Shown here: positions 2,129 to 29,960 of the stretch, piece after piece
Layout of the letters: every line of letters begins with the position of its first letter
How positions within the stretch are numbered: the first letter of the stretch is position 1
IMG/VR virus record: IMGVR_UViG_3300046333_000120
DNA length: 64,000 nucleotides
Origin: a virus
Reading direction: 5' to 3' (one strand)
The notes under the pieces: generated by a model
The model's database searches: none
Told to the model about the DNA's origin: nothing
Seen by the model: the letters and a program-made list of their open reading frames with translations, nothing else
Translations under genes and position numbers: made by a program

Positions 2129-4192
2129 ATGGCAAAATCATCAAGATTCTTAAGAATAGACGAAGATGTATTATTAGAATTCATCTATCACGATCAATCG
2201 AATTCCGATCAGGTTAAGATTGAAAATGATAATAATGGAACTCAAATTAAATACTTAAATACAGTCGATGGAGACAATAGTGCTTCAAGATTCTTAATTA
2301 GCGAGCTAGGTGCAGATGTTGTTGAGTTTACAGTTACAACTTCAAGTGGATATGTTATAATAAATAGTTTTGCAAGTAGACAACTTTTACTTAGAAATGG
2401 TAAAACATATAAATTCGATTTAACAGATTCAAGTATTAATAATGTAGCTGGATTTACAATTCCAGGAGGTGCAGGTTATTTAAATGGACAAATATACGTC
2501 TATACCCCAACAACAAATGGAACATTTAAATATGAATATACTGATTTAGCTGAAACTAGTTTTATTGGAGGTCAAATTGAAGTTTCAAATAGAGCAAGTT
2601 CTCTTTTTTCAGTTCCAGAAGCACAAACTGGAAATGATATTAAAACAGCACCTGGAGAATCTGGTAGATATTATGCAGTTCCTACTGATACTAGTGGAAC
2701 CTTAGCACTATTAAATAATTCATTAAATTATCTAGATTCAACAGAATGGTTAGGAACTAATTCAAGTTCTCTTAGTGTAATTCCTACTTCAACTGTAAAT
2801 GCAGTGTGGTATGATACAATAAGACTTCATTTGCGAACTGGTTATTCTTTTTCCGGAAGAGGATATGATGGATTTTTATTTCAAACAAAGATTAAAAGGC
2901 ATTCTGGCATTTATAATTATTTTAATTCTACAGTTTACTTAAACTCTTCAAGTTTTGAACTTCAAAATCCAAATCCATTTATTTTAGCAGATACTTCATA
3001 TTCAAAATATATTGAGATTAAAGTACCTACTTTAGTAAGTATGTATGACCCTACTAAAAATTTAGAATTTGAAGAAAGTTTCTTTGGAACTACAGGTTCT
3101 TTAGATGCAATTAATCCTTCAATAAATTATGAAATTGATTTTAAATTAATCAATGAAGTAGTTACAATAGGAGGATATGATTATATTCAAGTGGCTGAAG
3201 GTAACTCTCTTACTCTTTCACAGGAAGACGAGTATGTTGATATTTCATTAAATGTAGAACATTCAACCGAAGGTGACTATTTTGAAATATATGGAACTAA
3301 AGATGGTTCTACTGCAGGATTTGAAAGTTATATTAATGGAAGGATGCAAACATCTGGAGATGATTTAACTATTTTCTATGAAGTACAAGTAAGCGAACAG
3401 TTAGGTCTTAATTATATTAATACCTTTTCAAATACATTTACACAAACATCACAGTTCGATCAACCTATTGTATTTAGACCAGTGATTATGAACTCATCTA
3501 TTTCAAATAACTTTACAATTACGGTAAATATGAGAATTTATAATGAGACAGATAATACCCAGATATTAAAAGTAGCATCATTAATTTATAGTCAACCTAA
3601 AAAGTATGGTAAAAAATTATTGAAGTTAAATTTAAACTCAAGTTTTTCACCAACTGTGGTTTATAATACATTACCAAATACATCAGTTAATAGAGAATTA
3701 AATCAATTTGTTAATTCAATAAGACCATCCATAGGAGAAACTAAATATGTTCCAGTTGCATTAGATACATACGGTATTGTTGCATCAAATAGTAAAATAT
3801 CAACAGATGGCGCAGACGTAACATCAACGGCAGACATTAAATATGATACAGAAGGAAATGGTATTATTACATTGTCAAAGGTATCAGATAACTTTATTAA
3901 ATTTAAAGTTGCAAAACCAGGGGATGGAGTTCTTAATGCAATAAGTCTTGTAAATGCAGAAGACATGATATTAATTATTAAGAGTGGAACTATAGAAGAA
4001 AGAATTTCACATGACCCTTCATTTCCAGGAGTGGATATGGGTAATGGAGAAGTTTTCTTTAAAATTGCAAAGAGTACAGCAGTTAGATTTGACCAATCAG
4101 ATACAAATCAAAATGCCGATAAATTTTATATTAACATAAAAAATGGTGGTACTGAATCTTTATTGTACTACGGAAAAGTTAACATTATATAA
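2129..4192 (+). CDS. hypothetical virion structural protein (687 aa, probably baseplate/tail associated)
   Basis: Long ORF with beta-rich composition, translationally coupled (TAATG) to a tail-tube-fold gene. Confidence 0.45.
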   Translation: MAKSSRFLRIDEDVLLEFIYHDQSNSDQVKIENDNNGTQIKYLNTVDGDNSASRFLISELGADVVEFTVTTSSGYVIINSFASRQLLLRNGKTYKFDLTDSSINNVAGFTIPGGAGYLNGQIYVYTPTTNGTFKYEYTDLAETSFIGGQIEVSNRASSLFSVPEAQTGNDIKTAPGESGRYYAVPTDTSGTLALLNNSLNYLDSTEWLGTNSSSLSVIPTSTVNAVWYDTIRLHLRTGYSFSGRGYDGFLFQTKIKRHSGIYNYFNSTVYLNSSSFELQNPNPFILADTSYSKYIEIKVPTLVSMYDPTKNLEFEESFFGTTGSLDAINPSINYEIDFKLINEVVTIGGYDYIQVAEGNSLTLSQEDEYVDISLNVEHSTEGDYFEIYGTKDGSTAGFESYINGRMQTSGDDLTIFYEVQVSEQLGLNYINTFSNTFTQTSQFDQPIVFRPVIMNSSISNNFTITVNMRIYNETDNTQILKVASLIYSQPKKYGKKLLKLNLNSSFSPTVVYNTLPNTSVNRELNQFVNSIRPSIGETKYVPVALDTYGIVASNSKISTDGADVTSTADIKYDTEGNGIITLSKVSDNFIKFKVAKPGDGVLNAISLVNAEDMILIIKSGTIEERISHDPSFPGVDMGNGEVFFKIAKSTAVRFDQSDTNQNADKFYINIKNGGTESLLYYGKVNII

Positions 4193-19964: not shown

Positions 19965-20225
19965 ATGAATTATATTTTTAGGCCGGAAAACTGGAGTAAA
20001 TGGTCAGTTTTAGCAATCGATAAAATAAATAAAACAATAGATTCATGCTCTACTCAGGAACATTTGAATGTTGCCAAGGTAATGGTTGATAACTTTATAA
20101 TAATAACTGCCTTAGAAGATAATATAACAGAGAAAGATCTAGAAGATGTTATGAAATTGTTTTGGTTAAAATTAGACTTACAAAATCAATTAATTTTTGA
20201 AACAAATTTAAAAGTATTAGTATAA
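19965..20225 (+). CDS. hypothetical protein (86 aa)
   Basis: ORF downstream of GAAAC-N17-TATAA at 19915. Confidence 0.6.
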   Translation: MNYIFRPENWSKWSVLAIDKINKTIDSCSTQEHLNVAKVMVDNFIIITALEDNITEKDLEDVMKLFWLKLDLQNQLIFETNLKVLV

Positions 20226-20249: not shown

Positions 20250-21674
20250 ATGAAATTTGTAGACGCTTTAAGACAAGAAGACATTTTAACAGAAAATGGA
20301 ATGGCAACAAATTCAACTTCGTTGAATGCATGCGTTGATTTATTCTTTAATATTGGTGCAATGCGAGGTCAAGATAAACAACGTTTACTTGCAACTTTCT
20401 CTAAAGCTTTCAATGAAGACCCTAAGCGTGCTATGAAACTTTTGTTTTGGGCAAGAGATGTTAGAGGTGGAGCAGGAGAACGCCAGATATTTAAGGATAT
20501 TTTAGTTTATTTAGCTGAAAATCACGATTTGGCTTTAAAACCAAATTTAGATTTAATTGCAGAGTATGGTCGTTTTGATGATTTATTATCTTTATTAGGA
20601 ACTTATTTAGAAAATGATGCTTTACGAATTATATCAGATGCACTTAACACTGAAAATGGATTATGTGCAAAATGGATGCCTCGTAAGGGTCAAAATGCAG
20701 AAAAAATCCGTGCATTCTTAAAATTATCACCAAAACAGTATCGTAAAACTTTAGTTAATTTAACGAATGTTGTTGAAACTAAAATGTGTGCTAAAGAATG
20801 GGACACTATTGATTTTGGTAAATTACCATCAGTAGCTTCTGCAAGATATCAAAAAGCTTTTGGTAAAAATGCATACACAAGTTACTCTGCTTATATAGAA
20901 TCCCTTGTAAAGGGAGAAGCTAAAATAAATGCAGGTGCTATTTATCCTTATGATGTTACTAAGTCATTAACACATGGTAATGCAAAGGTAGCAAACGAAC
21001 AATGGAAAGCCCTTCCAAATTATCTAGAAGGTGCAAACGATATGATTTTACCAGTAGTGGATGTTTCAGGTTCAATGTCATCTCCAGCAGGTGGTAGTAA
21101 AACTGTAACTTGTATGGATGTTGCTATCTCTTTGGGTCTTTATATTTCTGAAAGAAATGAAGGTGCTTTTAAGGATGCTTTTATTACATTCTCAAGTAAT
21201 CCACAACTACAATTATTAAGTGGTTCATTAAGTGAGCGTTATGCACAAATGTCAAATGCAGATTGGGGAATGTCTACAAATCTGGAGTCAACCTTTAAAT
21301 TAATTTTAAATCAAGCGACTAAACATAATTTATCTCAAGCTGAAATGCCAAATAAAATTCTAATATTATCAGATATGGAATTTAATCAAGCAACTTCAAC
21401 TGGTTGGAGAAATGAAGCATCATGGAACCCAACAGCTCAACAAGTAATTAACGACATGTATGAGTCTTCAGGTTACAAAATGCCTCAAATTGTTTATTGG
21501 AACATTCAATCCAGAAATGGAGGAGTACCAGTTGCATTTGATACAGCAGGAACTGCATTAATTTCAGGATTCTCTCCAGCAATTATGACAAGCTTACTTG
21601 GAGGAGATATTGAATCTCCACAGCAAATCATGGATAAAACAATTTTGAGTGAGAGATACGCTCCAATTGTTTAA
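20250..21674 (+). CDS. DUF2828-family protein: helical N-region plus vWA domain (Ro60/TROVE-like architecture)
   Basis: TENG, RDVRGGAGER, YGRFDDL and AKWMPR motifs; MIDAS motifs VVDVSGSM and ILSDMEF, plus YWN. Confidence 0.8.
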   Translation: MKFVDALRQEDILTENGMATNSTSLNACVDLFFNIGAMRGQDKQRLLATFSKAFNEDPKRAMKLLFWARDVRGGAGERQIFKDILVYLAENHDLALKPNLDLIAEYGRFDDLLSLLGTYLENDALRIISDALNTENGLCAKWMPRKGQNAEKIRAFLKLSPKQYRKTLVNLTNVVETKMCAKEWDTIDFGKLPSVASARYQKAFGKNAYTSYSAYIESLVKGEAKINAGAIYPYDVTKSLTHGNAKVANEQWKALPNYLEGANDMILPVVDVSGSMSSPAGGSKTVTCMDVAISLGLYISERNEGAFKDAFITFSSNPQLQLLSGSLSERYAQMSNADWGMSTNLESTFKLILNQATKHNLSQAEMPNKILILSDMEFNQATSTGWRNEASWNPTAQQVINDMYESSGYKMPQIVYWNIQSRNGGVPVAFDTAGTALISGFSPAIMTSLLGGDIESPQQIMDKTILSERYAPIV

Positions 21675-21688
21675 GATATATAATAAAA

Positions 21689-21748
21689 TTGGTTCTTTAC
21701 AGCAAATAATAAACAAGCAAAACAATTAGCAACTACGATTAGAACCAG
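21689..21748 (+). ncRNA. putative small structured RNA 1 (Y-RNA-like architecture)
   Basis: 5' TGGTTCT pairs with 3' AGAACCA; TACAGCAAA lies one nt after the 5' arm; starts just after the late motif at 21675. Confidence 0.5.
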
Positions 21749-21750
21749 GT

Positions 21751-21985
21751 GGATCGGTACAGCAAAAAGTACAAACACAGATATGATAGCCAACGTATTA
21801 CAGAGATAGCATCAAGTATAACAGGCAAATGGAAGTTTACCAGTATAAAAAATGGACAAACGTCATACCACCTCAATAGGTGACAAGTAGGATGGGTCGA
21901 AGTTTAGTAGACGCTCACGAAAGTCAAAGCCGAAGACGTAAAAACAAGGTTATTCTGCCGAGAAGAAAATCACGAACAACGATCC
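21751..21985 (+). ncRNA. putative structured RNA 2 (Y-RNA-like architecture, ~235 nt)
   Basis: 5' GGATCG pairs with 3' CGATCC; TACAGCAAA lies one nt after the 5' arm; internal hairpins; GC-richer than other intergenic DNA; followed by a terminator. Confidence 0.5.
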
Positions 21986-21996
21986 CGTTATAATTT

Positions 21997-22023
21997 AATC
22001 CAGACTTAAGTCTGGATTTTTTT
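21997..22023 (+). terminator. intrinsic terminator after the non-coding unit
   Basis: AATCCAGAC-TTAA-GTCTGGATT followed by a T-run. Confidence 0.8.
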
Positions 22024-22090
22024 ATGCAAATATTCCATTTAGTTTCGAAACAAATTATCAATTCGATATATAATAACTAAACACGAATTT

Positions 22091-22363
22091 ATGAATAATA
22101 TTTTAGAAGAAGCAAATCAAATTGTTAATCGCAGGTCAGAAGAAGCTGATCGTAATTATGGTCCATTTTCAGAAGGAATGGATAGAGCTGCCTTAATTTT
22201 TCAAGGTATGACTGGAATTGAAGTTACAGGAGAACATATGTTTAAGGCACTTATTGCTCTTAAGTTTTCAAGGGAATCTTATAACCATAAGAAAGATAAT
22301 TTATTAGATGCAGTTGCGTATATCCAAGGATTAGATAACTACATTAACGAAAAACAAGTTTAA
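22091..22363 (+). CDS. small all-alpha dNTP diphosphohydrolase-like protein (DUF6378-like)
   Basis: ILEEA...DRNYG...LKFSRE...DNLLDAVAY pattern. Confidence 0.55.
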   Translation: MNNILEEANQIVNRRSEEADRNYGPFSEGMDRAALIFQGMTGIEVTGEHMFKALIALKFSRESYNHKKDNLLDAVAYIQGLDNYINEKQV

Positions 22364-28910: not shown

Positions 28911-28969
28911 GGAACCGGCAATCTGAAATACGATTGCATTTTAGGACCGGGACTAGTTCACGGAGGTGT

Positions 28970-29001
28970 AAAGCAGGGAATTCGCTACTCCCTGCTTTTT
29001 T
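28970..29001 (+). terminator. intrinsic terminator after nrdA
   Basis: AAAGCAGGGA-ATTCGCTAC-TCCCTGCTTT followed by a T-run. Confidence 0.8.
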
Positions 29002-29103
29002 ATTTGTAAAAAAAAGATATATAATAAAAATAATCAATAAAATATTTTCATATATCAAATAAAATGATTATTATATTTATATAAACAAAATAAAACAAAA
29101 ATT

Positions 29104-29960
29104 ATGAAACACATTCAATTATTTGAACAATTTGTTAATGAGGCAAAATTAACCAAAAAAGTCCAGGATACGCAGAAGCGTTAGAAACTATTAAAACTAA
29201 AGATGCTTTAGAAAATTTCTTTTTAAAAAATAAGAAGAAGATGGAATCTCTTCCAATGGAACAATTCACAAAACCATCGACAACCTCCGAGTTAGCACCG
29301 AAAGTACTTCCAGAATTAATGAACCATTTACAAGGAAAATTAAAAAATAGTATTGTTGACATGGACAACGGCGATATCAAAGTTAGTTCGCCAGAAGTCA
29401 ATACTAATCAATATTACAATACTAAATTTCCATGTATTTTGTTGGGGTATCGTCATAACGATTTTTATCCGATGGTAGGTCAAGTATCACCGGATCATAA
29501 TGGTTATTGGAAACAATATACTAAAAATATTGTCATAAAAACGGAAATTGAGACAGATAAATTAAATCGATGGTCTTCCAAAGGTGAGTCGATATTGCAT
29601 GCTTCAAATACTAATGCAATCATTGATTTTTTAATTAGTTCTTCCACATTTAGTAATCTTTTACAAAAACACGTAAATGCTTGTACTGCTTATATAAAGG
29701 CAGTAAATGCTTATGAAGTTCCAGATAAAGAAAAACTAAAATTAGAAGCTGAAGAGGTAATATCTGAATTCGCATGGGAAGTATCTAACCAAATTGAAAA
29801 AGCTAATCAACATGATAAACACTTTAAATCTTCTAAATTTTCAGAGGAAAAAATGGAAAAATACTTTAAAAGTATGACTAAAGGATGGACATCTGAAGAA
29901 ATTATATCAAATCTTACAGATTATAATTGGAGAGTTCATACGTATGAATTAGGTTTATAA
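29104..29960 (+). pseudogene. frameshifted putative internal head protein (targeting leader out of frame with the body)
   Basis: ATG 29104 encodes MKHIQLFEQFVNEAKLTKK and stops at 29184. The -1 frame is open from 29142 to 29960. An A6 run lies at 29155-29160. Confidence 0.6.

What the first reader, a model, noticed from the sequence alone, without database searches (positions are those of the whole stretch)
20250..22023. Ro60-like (DUF2828) gene followed by its own non-coding transcription unit with two end-paired TACAGCAAA RNAs
Seen: after the DUF2828 stop comes the longest intergenic region in the window (~415 nt). It is bounded by a GATATATAA motif (21675) and a strong terminator (21997). 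It holds two adjacent elements with the same design but different stem sequences. Element 1 is TGGTTCT-t-TACAGCAAA...AGAACCA (21690-21747). Element 2 is GGATCG-g-TACAGCAAA...CGATCC (21751-21985). Element 1 has two more AGCAA copies in its loop. Element 2 encloses further hairpins (CACCT/AGGTG within CGTCATAC/GTAGGATG, and a GGAA-capped stem). Known: Ro60/Rsr proteins are a helical ring plus vWA domain and bind Y RNAs, which are encoded beside the gene and defined by 5'/3' end pairing next to a conserved motif; they are linked to RNA decay and repair. DUF2828 is uncharacterised. Inference: DUF2828 is a Ro-like RNA-binding protein and these are its cognate RNAs, a ribonucleoprotein with a binding motif unlike canonical Y RNAs. 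The protein has a middle-type promoter (20199) and the RNAs a late-type one.
Basis: partly seen in the sequence, partly recalled or inferred. Interest (0 to 1): 0.85.

Follow-up and report, generated by a model that had tools for sequence, protein, structure and literature searches.

The report
Phage Ro60-like protein with partner RNAs
A phage gene for a ring protein that folds like the RNA-surveillance protein Ro60 is followed by its own small transcription unit holding two folded RNAs with one shared "handle". The same handle sits beside this gene in very different phages and matches the unexplained Class I RNAs of the amoeba Dictyostelium.

Summary
The 416-nt gap after the DUF2828 gene (20250-21674) is non-coding. 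It is framed by a promoter-like box (21675) and a terminator (21997-22025). It holds two RNA modules, E1 (21689-21748) and E2 (21749-21987). Each has an end-pairing stem followed by NNN-CAGCAA.

About 48 related phage contigs keep the unit, with compensatory changes in the stems. A covariance model of the short module hits only next to DUF2828 genes or in the adjoining tRNA arrays, and on the gene's strand. This held in the window's relatives, a Felix O1-type phage, KVP40, and Campylobacter, Listeria and mycobacterial phages. It also held in 23 of 33 independent MAG loci. Five phages without DUF2828 gave nothing.

The predicted protein matches Ro60 structures over its full length (Z 14-19). 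In mycobacteriophage LeBron one such handle encloses a weak YrlA (tRNA-like Y RNA) match.

My best reading is a divergent Ro60/Y-RNA-type particle whose handle is CAGCAA rather than GNCGAA. Binding itself is inferred, not shown. The handle equals the published Dictyostelium Class I RNA pattern.

I found no paper or Rfam family describing this pairing. This scan has reported the same system before on other DNA.

The parts
20250..21674 (+). DUF2828/DUF7788 gene, 474 aa: Ro60-like helical ring plus vWA domain with an intact MIDAS motif (D271, S273, S275, T343, D375 invariant)
   Evidence: Pfam. AF2 model, pLDDT 75.9. Foldseek top 13 hits are all Ro60. VIA-align Z 18.7 to phiLo Ro60 and 17.5 to Xenopus Ro60. 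Invariant columns in A2.
21675..21685 (+). Promoter-like box GATATATAATA; it would place the transcript start at about the first base of the E1 stem
   Evidence: 15 copies, + strand only, against 2.9 expected. Usually 24-44 nt before ORF starts. An A/T-rich box is kept at the same place in relatives.
21689..21748 (+). E1: short handle RNA (60 nt). Stem 21689-96/21741-48, linker UUA, CAGCAA 21700-05, A/C-rich loop.
   Evidence: Only R1 hit in the 64-kb window, E 2e-12. Stem covariation.
21749..21987 (+). E2: long handle RNA (239 nt). Stem 21749,21751-56/21980-86, linker GUA, CAGCAA 21760-65, cargo of about 210 nt.
   Evidence: Closing stem GGAUCG/CGAUCC changes to GGAUAG/CUAUCC and GGAACG/CGUUCC in relatives.
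21757..21772 (+). GUAC-AGCAAAAA-GUAC hairpin that overlaps the E2 handle motif
   Evidence: 4 pairs, 97.7% paired, one pair with double changes.
21953..21964 (+). UUCU-GCCG-AGAA hairpin in the E2 cargo
   Evidence: All 4 pairs covary; 16 double changes at the innermost pair.
21895..21937 (+). Two conserved GNCGAAG strings (GGUCGAAG 21895-902, GCCGAAGAC 21929-37) inside the E2 cargo; meaning unknown
   Evidence: Nearly invariant in A1. Same consensus as the YrlA Rsr-site motif, but not kept in L012, L047 or L049.
21997..22025 (+). Intrinsic terminator ending the RNA unit
   Evidence: 9-bp stem followed by a T run.
22065..22075 (+). Second copy of the promoter-like box, serving the next gene (22091, DUF6378)

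Best explanation
The DUF2828 protein is a divergent Ro60-type ring protein. The unit downstream encodes its two partner RNAs.

The unit is probably transcribed from its own promoter-like box as one RNA of about 335 nt, ending at the terminator, and may be cut between E1 and E2. Each RNA presents a 'handle': a 6-8 bp helix joining its 5' and 3' ends, followed on the 5' strand by NNN-CAGCAA. I infer that the protein grips this handle, as Ro60 grips the end-paired helix of Y RNAs.

E1 is a minimal RNA, comparable to YrlB or a Class I RNA. E2 carries a cargo of about 210 nt. By analogy with Y RNAs, the cargo would tether or decoy a host factor. The vWA/MIDAS face of the protein would hold a protein partner.

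The likely purpose is to control host RNA decay or repair, or to counter defence, during infection.

Shown here:
- The RNAs are conserved, structured and non-coding.
- They are genetically linked to DUF2828 across phage families.
- The protein is predicted to have the Ro60 fold.

Inferred:
- Direct binding.
- Processing of the transcript.
- The host target.
For: Protein fold:
- The top 13 Foldseek matches in the PDB are Ro60, Rsr or phiLo Ro60.
- VIA-align gives Z 18.7, 17.9 and 17.5 over about 390 residues. vWA-only matches stop at about 11.
- The MIDAS residues are invariant.

RNA reality:
- The unit is kept in about 48 related contigs.
- Covariation is seen on a sequence-only alignment.
- No ORF is conserved.

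Linkage to DUF2828:
- Model R1 over 275 kb gave 29 hits at E<1e-3. All lie on the gene's strand and next to DUF2828. The window had a single hit.
- In whole genomes, Listeria LMTA-148 has 3 hits, all abutting the gene. LeBron has 3 hits, all in the gap after gp53. The Felix O1-type phage mio has 3, and KVP40 has 2, all in gaps of the tRNA array by the gene.
- In 33 independent MAG loci, 46 of 47 hits are on the gene's strand, and 23 loci have a hit at E<0.01.
- T4, T5, SPO1, phiKZ and N4 lack DUF2828 and give no hit below E 0.3.

Tie to Y RNAs:
- LeBron's second handle encloses a YrlA-like T arm and D arm (RF02553, 39.8 bits, E 1.6e-7, below the gathering cutoff).

Literature:
- Bas63 gp130 is reported as structurally Ro60-like and as a counter to the ppl defence system.
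- Thermus phage Ro60 binds two neighbouring Yrl RNAs and attenuates PNPase.
Against: - No binding, expression or end-mapping data exist for this phage.
- Sequence searches do not link the protein to TROVE. Pfam returns only DUF2828 and DUF7788. The PDB profile hit to phiLo Ro60 has E 1.1.
- The window's RNAs match neither Rfam YrlA, tRNA nor Y_RNA.
- The E2 cargo has little supported structure. The single-sequence fold gives z -1.4 and the alifold consensus is sparse.
- Ten of the 33 test loci show no module within 2.5 kb, though some of those are truncated.
- Co-location could reflect shared regulation rather than binding.
Confidence: 0.7

Rival explanations
1. The handle RNAs are real small RNAs that work with a host factor or another phage protein, such as a tRNA-processing or repair enzyme. 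They sit near DUF2828 only because both belong to the phage's tRNA and RNA-repair neighbourhood.
For: In mio and KVP40 the modules lie inside tRNA arrays, in KVP40 6-7 kb from the gene. RtcB lies near the Listeria gene. Published pull-downs of Dictyostelium Class I RNA name an RRM protein as the direct binder.
Against: This window has no tRNA at all, yet the modules abut the gene. LeBron likewise has them in the gap right after gp53. Hosts span Actinobacteria, Firmicutes, Campylobacterota and Proteobacteria, which argues for a phage-borne partner. T4 and T5 have tRNA arrays but lack both the gene and the modules.
Confidence: 0.14
2. The elements act in cis on the DUF2828 message, as a 3'-UTR stabiliser or an operator for autoregulation, rather than as free partner RNAs.
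For: They start 15 nt after the stop codon. In KVP40-type phages a handle hairpin encloses the ribosome-binding site and start codon of the gene.
Against: The unit has its own promoter-like box. In some relatives it is separated from the gene by an insert of about 390 bp; in L050 and L051 an ORF of 86-91 aa fills the corresponding gap. In other phages it lies upstream of the gene or kilobases away in tRNA arrays. A cis operator would itself imply that the protein binds the handle.
Confidence: 0.08
3. The region encodes one or more small peptides, or is a DNA-level element (a binding site or repeat), and the apparent RNA structure is incidental.
For: GTG-started ORFs of 44 and 37 aa exist at 21749-21883 and 21880-21993.
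Against: Stops occur in all frames, and the longest ORF shifts place and frame among relatives. Compensatory changes keep the pairing. All hits lie on one strand.
Confidence: 0.03

Closest known systems
Ro60 (Rsr, TROVE + vWA) with Y RNAs: Xenopus/human Ro60-Y RNA, Deinococcus Rsr-Yrn1, Salmonella and Mycobacterium Rsr-YrlA/YrlB (Chen et al. 2014, PMC4201824; Rfam RF02553), Thermus phage phiLo Ro60-Yrl1/Yrl2 (PMC12135203)
   Same: Ring plus vWA fold. One to several small RNAs are encoded beside the gene on the same strand, each with paired 5' and 3' ends and a short conserved motif on the 5' strand. There is one small and one cargo-bearing RNA, as with YrlB and YrlA. In LeBron the cargo is a YrlA-like tRNA mimic.
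   Different: No TROVE signature by sequence. The handle motif is NNN-CAGCAA instead of GNCGAA(N)G or GGUCCGA. The window's cargo is not tRNA-like. No Rfam family reaches its cutoff.
Dictyostelium Class I RNAs (Rfam RF01414; Aspegren 2004; Kjellin et al. 2021, PMC7919456; search pattern in PMC5054030)
   Same: Design: about 60 nt, a 6-bp stem joining the ends, and an 11-nt motif next to the 5' strand. The published pattern is GTTGRCCTTACAGCAA...GTCAACTG. T3, C6, C9, A10 and A11 are invariant, with start AAG and end CUGU. E1 of relatives reads GGTTCC-TTACAGCAA, the exact 11-mer. The consensus of independent hits is AAGG....NU(A)CAGCAA....CCUG(U). RF01414 scores 25-29 bits on E1 of L047, L050 and L005.
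   Different: Class I RNAs are eukaryotic genes with a DUSE promoter and were reported as unique to Dictyostelia. The known direct binder is the RRM protein Rnp1A. The scores are below the cutoff of 41.5, and the window's own E1 gave no RF01414 hit at E<=10. Homology and convergence cannot be told apart here.
Bas63 gp130 (Felix O1-type phage; PhageMaP preprint 10.1101/2024.10.10.617714)
   Same: By its description and position (Ro60-like structure, directly upstream of the tRNA genes) gp130 appears to be the Bas63 counterpart of this protein, as in the related phage mio. I did not check its sequence. The authors report that it counters the ppl defence system.
   Different: The authors guessed that some of the adjoining tRNA genes are its Y RNAs. 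In the related phage mio the candidates are instead separate CAGCAA-handle RNAs lying in the gaps between tRNAs.

Membership tests
Ro60/TROVE proteins | Helical (HEAT) ring followed by a vWA domain | tested here: met
   AF2 model compared with the PDB: Z 18.7 (9kop), 17.9 (9l5y), 17.5 (1yvr) and 13.7 (2nvo) over about 380-400 residues. The Foldseek top 13 are all Ro60. This rests on a predicted model with pLDDT 75.9.
Ro60/TROVE proteins | TROVE sequence signature (Pfam PF05731) or significant sequence similarity to Ro60 | tested here: not met
   Pfam returns only DUF2828 and DUF7788 at E<=0.01. phmmer and hmmsearch against PDB sequences give no significant Ro60 hit; phiLo TROVE scores E 1.1.
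Ro60/TROVE proteins | MIDAS motif in the vWA domain | tested here: met
   The DVSGS motif (D271, S273, S275) plus T343 and D375 are invariant in 26 homologues.
Ro60/TROVE proteins | Binds Y RNA and misfolded RNA | not testable with these tools
   No RNA-protein prediction or experiment is available here.
Bacterial/phage Y RNA (YrlA, RF02553) | 5' and 3' ends pair; encoded by the Ro gene on the same strand | tested here: met
Bacterial/phage Y RNA (YrlA, RF02553) | GNCGAA(N)G motif near the 5' end, at the Ro-binding helix | tested here: not met
   The handle carries CAGCAA at that place. Two GNCGAAG strings lie deep in the E2 cargo and are not kept in all relatives.
Bacterial/phage Y RNA (YrlA, RF02553) | tRNA-like domain (T and D arms); Rfam score at or above 69 bits | tested here: not met
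   The window has no tRNA or YrlA hit. Nine distant loci have none at E<=0.05. Only LeBron gives 39.8 bits.
Dictyostelium Class I RNA (RF01414) | Short stem joining the ends, plus the 11-nt motif (T3, C6, C9, A10, A11) next to the 5' strand | tested here: met
   E1 reads CUUUACAGCAA and relatives read CCUUACAGCAA, matching the published pattern.
Dictyostelium Class I RNA (RF01414) | Length 42-65 nt; conserved ends AAG... and ...CUGU | tested here: inconclusive
   E1 is 60 nt but begins UUGG and ends CCAGGU. E2 is 239 nt. The consensus of other clades is AAGG...CCUG(U).
Dictyostelium Class I RNA (RF01414) | Rfam gathering score of 41.5 bits | tested here: not met
   E1 of L047, L050 and L005 scores 28.8, 28.1 and 24.9 bits. 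The window's E1 is not reported at E<=10.

The most novel reading that the evidence does not exclude
The phage CAGCAA-handle RNAs and the Dictyostelium Class I RNAs are one RNA family whose conserved partner is a DUF2828 (Ro60-like) protein. If so, the long-unexplained Class I RNAs would be the Y RNAs of a second, widespread Ro-type particle shared by phages, bacteria and eukaryotes. A concrete test exists. The DdR-21 pull-down recovered a protein of unknown function, DDB_G0281243, conserved in all Dictyostelia. I could not look up its domains. If it carries DUF2828/DUF7788, the link would gain experimental support.
Probability: 0.25. Interest if true: 0.92.

Novelty: new variant of a known kind. 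Interest (0 to 1): 0.78.

Why it matters
- Ro60/Y-RNA particles are a classic RNA-surveillance system. Their bacterial and phage versions are known only for TROVE-type proteins with GNCGAA-type RNAs.
- Here a second protein family with the same predicted fold is paired with a different RNA handle. tblastn found this family in 710 phage records.
- That gives a testable partner and a binding-site hypothesis for a large 'domain of unknown function'.
- It points to the small RNAs that probably act with a reported anti-defence gene (Bas63 gp130).
- It offers an unexpected lead on the Dictyostelium Class I RNAs, which were thought unique to social amoebae.
- It also flags unannotated RNA genes hidden in the gaps of phage tRNA arrays.

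Tried and rejected
- Rfam at gathering cutoff on the window and on 21 loci gave only tRNAs.
- The weak L10_leader hit over the E2 3' part (22.9 bits) did not recur in nine relatives. It leaned on the terminator, so I dropped the idea that E2 mimics the L10 site.
- blastn of E2 against E. coli genomes gave no match, so there is no sign of an rRNA or tRNA copy.
- An nhmmer profile of the E2 cargo finds it only in this clade (L001-L055, L106).
- A simple regex-plus-6-bp-stem scan was far too loose, with about 50 hits per strand in the window. I replaced it with covariance models.
- An all-against-all column pairing screen and alifold on E2 sub-blocks added no well-supported helices.
- The third TACAGCAAA (63033, minus strand) lies inside a long + frame and is chance.
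- The genome search prefilter missed the two Campylobacter CPX modules that cmsearch finds on L083.
- Attempts to learn what DDB_G0281243 is all failed. Only one preprint names it. Avesson 2011 is not held. A search for long homologues returned only fungal DUF2828 proteins. The Atlas search returned only viral clusters.
- The gap at 28911-29240 behind another GATATATAA box showed nothing RNA-like on inspection.
Full report
**What is there.**

The + strand ORF 20250-21674 encodes a 474-aa protein that matches Pfam DUF2828 and DUF7788. Directly after its stop codon comes a 416-nt gap before the next gene at 22091, which is DUF6378.

The gap opens with GATATATAA at 21675 and closes with a 9-bp hairpin plus T run at 21997-22025. 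A second GATATATAA at 22065 precedes the next gene.

This box occurs 15 times in the window, only on the + strand and only between genes, against 2.9 expected. Eleven of the 15 copies lie 24-44 nt before an ORF start. It therefore behaves as this phage's promoter element. Its temporal class cannot be told from sequence. The sigma-70 scan found nothing at 20199.

The box at 21675 would place a transcript start at about the first base of E1.

**The two elements.**

- E1 (21689-21748) is UUGGUUCU-UUA-CAGCAA-loop-AGAACCAG.
- E2 (21749-21987) is G-U-GGAUCG-GUA-CAGCAA-cargo-CGAUCC-C-G.

The window has no tRNA gene and no Rfam family at gathering cutoff.

**Is it real, and is it RNA?**

A protein-guided scan of IMG/VR returned 80 loci at 59-95% protein identity. 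The intergenic unit is recognisable by blastn or nhmmer in about 48 of them, at 66-99% nucleotide identity.

In several relatives an insert of about 390 bp separates the gene from the unit. In L050 and L051 an ORF of 86-91 aa fills the corresponding gap. The unit keeps an A/T-rich box in front of it.

On a MAFFT alignment built without regard to structure (A1):

- The E1 stem varies as GGUUCU/AGAACC, GGUUCC/GGAACC, GGUUAU/AUAACC and GGUUUC/GAAACC. Its outer pair switches between U-A and A-U.
- The E2 closing stem varies as GGAUCG/CGAUCC, GGAUAG/CUAUCC and GGAACG/CGUUCC.
- A UUCY-GCCG-RGAA hairpin covaries at all four pairs.

Counted on four helices, 98.7% of cells pair against 91.1% in shuffles. 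Ten pairs and 53 cells carry double changes, and 0 of 500 shuffles reach this. Slid controls give 3 or fewer.

Every homologue has 3-17 stop codons in each frame, and the longest ORF moves in place and frame. The region is a conserved, structured, non-coding unit.

Apart from the handle, the GUAC hairpin and that one hairpin, the E2 cargo has little supported structure.

**The motif generalises.**

In loci at 59-63% protein identity, where the DNA no longer aligns, the sequence right after the stop codon again shows one to three modules. Each is a stem, then 3-4 nt, then C[AU]GCAA, and then the complementary strand followed by NG. The stem sequences are unrelated to the window's.

The same modules turned up in five other phage groups:

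- Mycobacteriophage LeBron, in the 360-nt gap after gp53, which is annotated 'Ro-like RNA binding protein'.
- The Felix O1-type phage mio, in the gaps between tRNA genes downstream of the gene.
- Campylobacter phage CPX, just upstream of the gene.
- Listeria phage LMTA-148, just upstream of the gene.
- KVP40 (see the whole-genome searches below).

Twenty-five short modules aligned on an 8-bp stem are 95.5% paired against 69.8% in shuffles. Seven of the eight pairs carry double changes. The distant modules were picked partly by their ability to pair, so this count is not independent for them.

**Specificity.**

- A covariance model (R1) searched over 275 kb including the whole window gave 29 hits at E<1e-3. 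All lie on the gene's strand and next to a DUF2828 gene. The window gave exactly one, E1 at E 2e-12, and its next best hit had E 2.6.
- A rebuilt model (R2) was run on whole phage genomes. It gave three hits in Listeria LMTA-148, all abutting the gene. It gave three in LeBron, all in the gap after gp53. It gave three in mio, and two in KVP40, all in tRNA-array gaps on the gene's strand.
- Thirty-three DUF2828 loci from prokaryote-genome contigs played no part in model building. They are mostly MAG contigs at 33-69% identity. There, 46 of 47 hits at E<=1 are on the gene's strand, and 23 loci have a hit at E<0.01.
- T4, T5, SPO1, phiKZ and N4 have no PF11443 match and no hit better than E 0.3 in 774 kb. 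The same Pfam search rings in all five positive genomes.

The consensus of the independent hits is (A)AAGG-N4-5-NU(A)-CAGCAA ... N4-5-CCUG(U).

**The protein.**

tblastn finds homologues in 710 phage records. An AlphaFold2 model (26-sequence alignment, pLDDT 75.9) has as its 13 best Foldseek matches only Ro60, Rsr and Thermus phage phiLo Ro60.

VIA-align gives Z 18.7 and 17.9 to phiLo Ro60, 17.5 to Xenopus Ro60 and 13.7 to Deinococcus Rsr, over about 380-400 residues. vWA-only proteins follow at about 11. The MIDAS residues are invariant.

By sequence there is no TROVE signal. The family is therefore Ro60-like in predicted fold but is not a sequence-level member of TROVE.

**Relation to Y RNAs.**

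Canonical bacterial and phage Y RNAs carry GNCGAA(N)G near the 5' end at the presumed Ro-binding site. YrlA also carries a tRNA-like domain.

In LeBron the second handle (UGGACUC...GAGUCCA, with CAGCAA just inside) encloses a clear T arm and D arm. It matches Rfam YrlA at 39.8 bits, E 1.6e-7, which is below the cutoff of 69. At least one member of this RNA family is thus a YrlA-like RNA with a different handle.

The window's own E2 shows no such likeness. Nor do the first modules of nine other loci. E2 does contain two conserved GNCGAAG strings, but they lie in the cargo and are not universal. I leave them unexplained.

**Relation to Class I RNAs.**

The published search pattern is GTTGRCCTTACAGCAA...GTCAACTG. 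The published description is:

- about 60 nt long;
- a 6-bp stem joining the ends;
- an 11-nt motif next to the 5' strand with T3, C6, C9, A10 and A11 invariant;
- start AAG and end CUGU;
- said to be unique to Dictyostelia.

E1 of the window's relatives contains the exact 11-mer CCTTACAGCAA, and the cross-phage consensus shares the end sequences. Rfam's RF01414 model scores E1 of three relatives at 25-29 bits over its full length, against a cutoff of 41.5. It does not report the window's own E1.

The preprint version of that study lists four proteins pulled down with Class I RNA DdR-21. One is DDB_G0281243, of unknown function and conserved in all Dictyostelia. I could not find out what it is.

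**How it most likely works.**

Shown:

- a self-contained, conserved, structured RNA unit;
- strict genetic linkage of its handle to DUF2828 genes;
- a predicted Ro60 fold.

Inferred by analogy with Ro60/Y RNA:

- The protein binds the handle.
- E1 is a minimal RNA and E2 a cargo-bearing RNA, like YrlB and YrlA.
- The cargo and the vWA face engage host factors.

Published hints at purpose are that the Bas63 homologue counters the ppl defence system and that phiLo Ro60 with its Yrl RNAs damps host PNPase.

A side observation fits direct binding. In KVP40 and two relatives a small handle hairpin (GACAU-NNNA-CAGCAA...AUGUC-AG) encloses the ribosome-binding site and start codon of the DUF2828 gene itself, behind a sigma-70-like promoter. 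This looks like an autoregulatory operator.

**Novelty.**

I found no paper on DUF2828-associated RNAs and no Rfam family. Earlier agents of this scan reported the same system many times on other DNA. This window is a further, clean instance with no tRNA genes nearby. The DDB_G0281243 lead was not in those notes.

Noticed in passing
L082 1931-1975 (KVP40); also L125 and L127, just before the DUF2828 start codon: A small handle hairpin (GACAU-NNNA-CAGCAA...AUGUC-AG) encloses the ribosome-binding site and ATG of the DUF2828 gene, behind a TTTACA-17-TATAAT promoter. It is kept in three Schizotequatrovirus phages although the loop differs. It may be an autoregulatory operator. Aeromonas phiAS5 and Synechococcus phage B3 lack it.
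   Followed up: partly
L084 3496-3604 (mycobacteriophage LeBron): A YrlA-like tRNA mimic (Rfam RF02553, 39.8 bits, below cutoff) is nested inside a CAGCAA handle, in the unannotated gap after gp53. It is flanked by two short handle RNAs at 3410-3470 and 3612-3664.
   Followed up: partly
L081 4210-4283, 4377-4437, 4793-4867 (phage mio); KVP40 record 175978-176099 and 176661-176725: Unannotated handle RNAs fill gaps between tRNA genes. A further R2 hit in mio (record 75763-75894) overlaps the annotated minus-strand CDS mio_111, which may be a miscall.
   Followed up: partly
L085 463-1014 (Listeria phage LMTA-148): A near-cutoff ROOL RNA match (RF03087, 90 bits against 99.1, E 4e-17) lies about 1 kb upstream of the handle RNAs and the DUF2828 gene. 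RtcB lies about 1.3 kb downstream of the gene.
   Followed up: no
window: 15 sites, e.g. 4744, 6207, 10785, 22065, 26406, 38423, 57201: GATATATAA(T/A)A occurs only on the + strand, always between genes, and mostly 24-44 nt before a start codon. It is the phage's main promoter-like element.
   Followed up: partly
L054 4445-4625, L056 4405-4545, L057 4440-4600, L065 1555-1725, L077 (first module after the gene): The first, larger module has a second outer helix beyond a small internal loop. In L056 this reads GGAAAAAUUGGUUU-AUAA-GGAAUG...CAUUCU-GA-AACCAAUUUUUCC. L064 and L070 carry a T-arm-like hairpin (GACAGGUUCAAACCCUGUC) in the cargo.
   Followed up: no
L005, L009, L013, L027, L032, L038, L055 (about 390 bp after the gene); L050 4451-4711, L051 4447-4722: In some relatives an insert of about 390 bp lies between the DUF2828 gene and the RNA unit. 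In L050 and L051 an ORF of 86-91 aa fills the corresponding gap. This shows that the RNA unit is separable from the gene.
   Followed up: no
literature: bioRxiv 10.1101/2020.04.05.026054: DDB_G0281243 is a protein of unknown function pulled down with Dictyostelium Class I RNA DdR-21 and conserved in all Dictyostelia. Whether it is a DUF2828 protein could not be checked here.
   Followed up: partly
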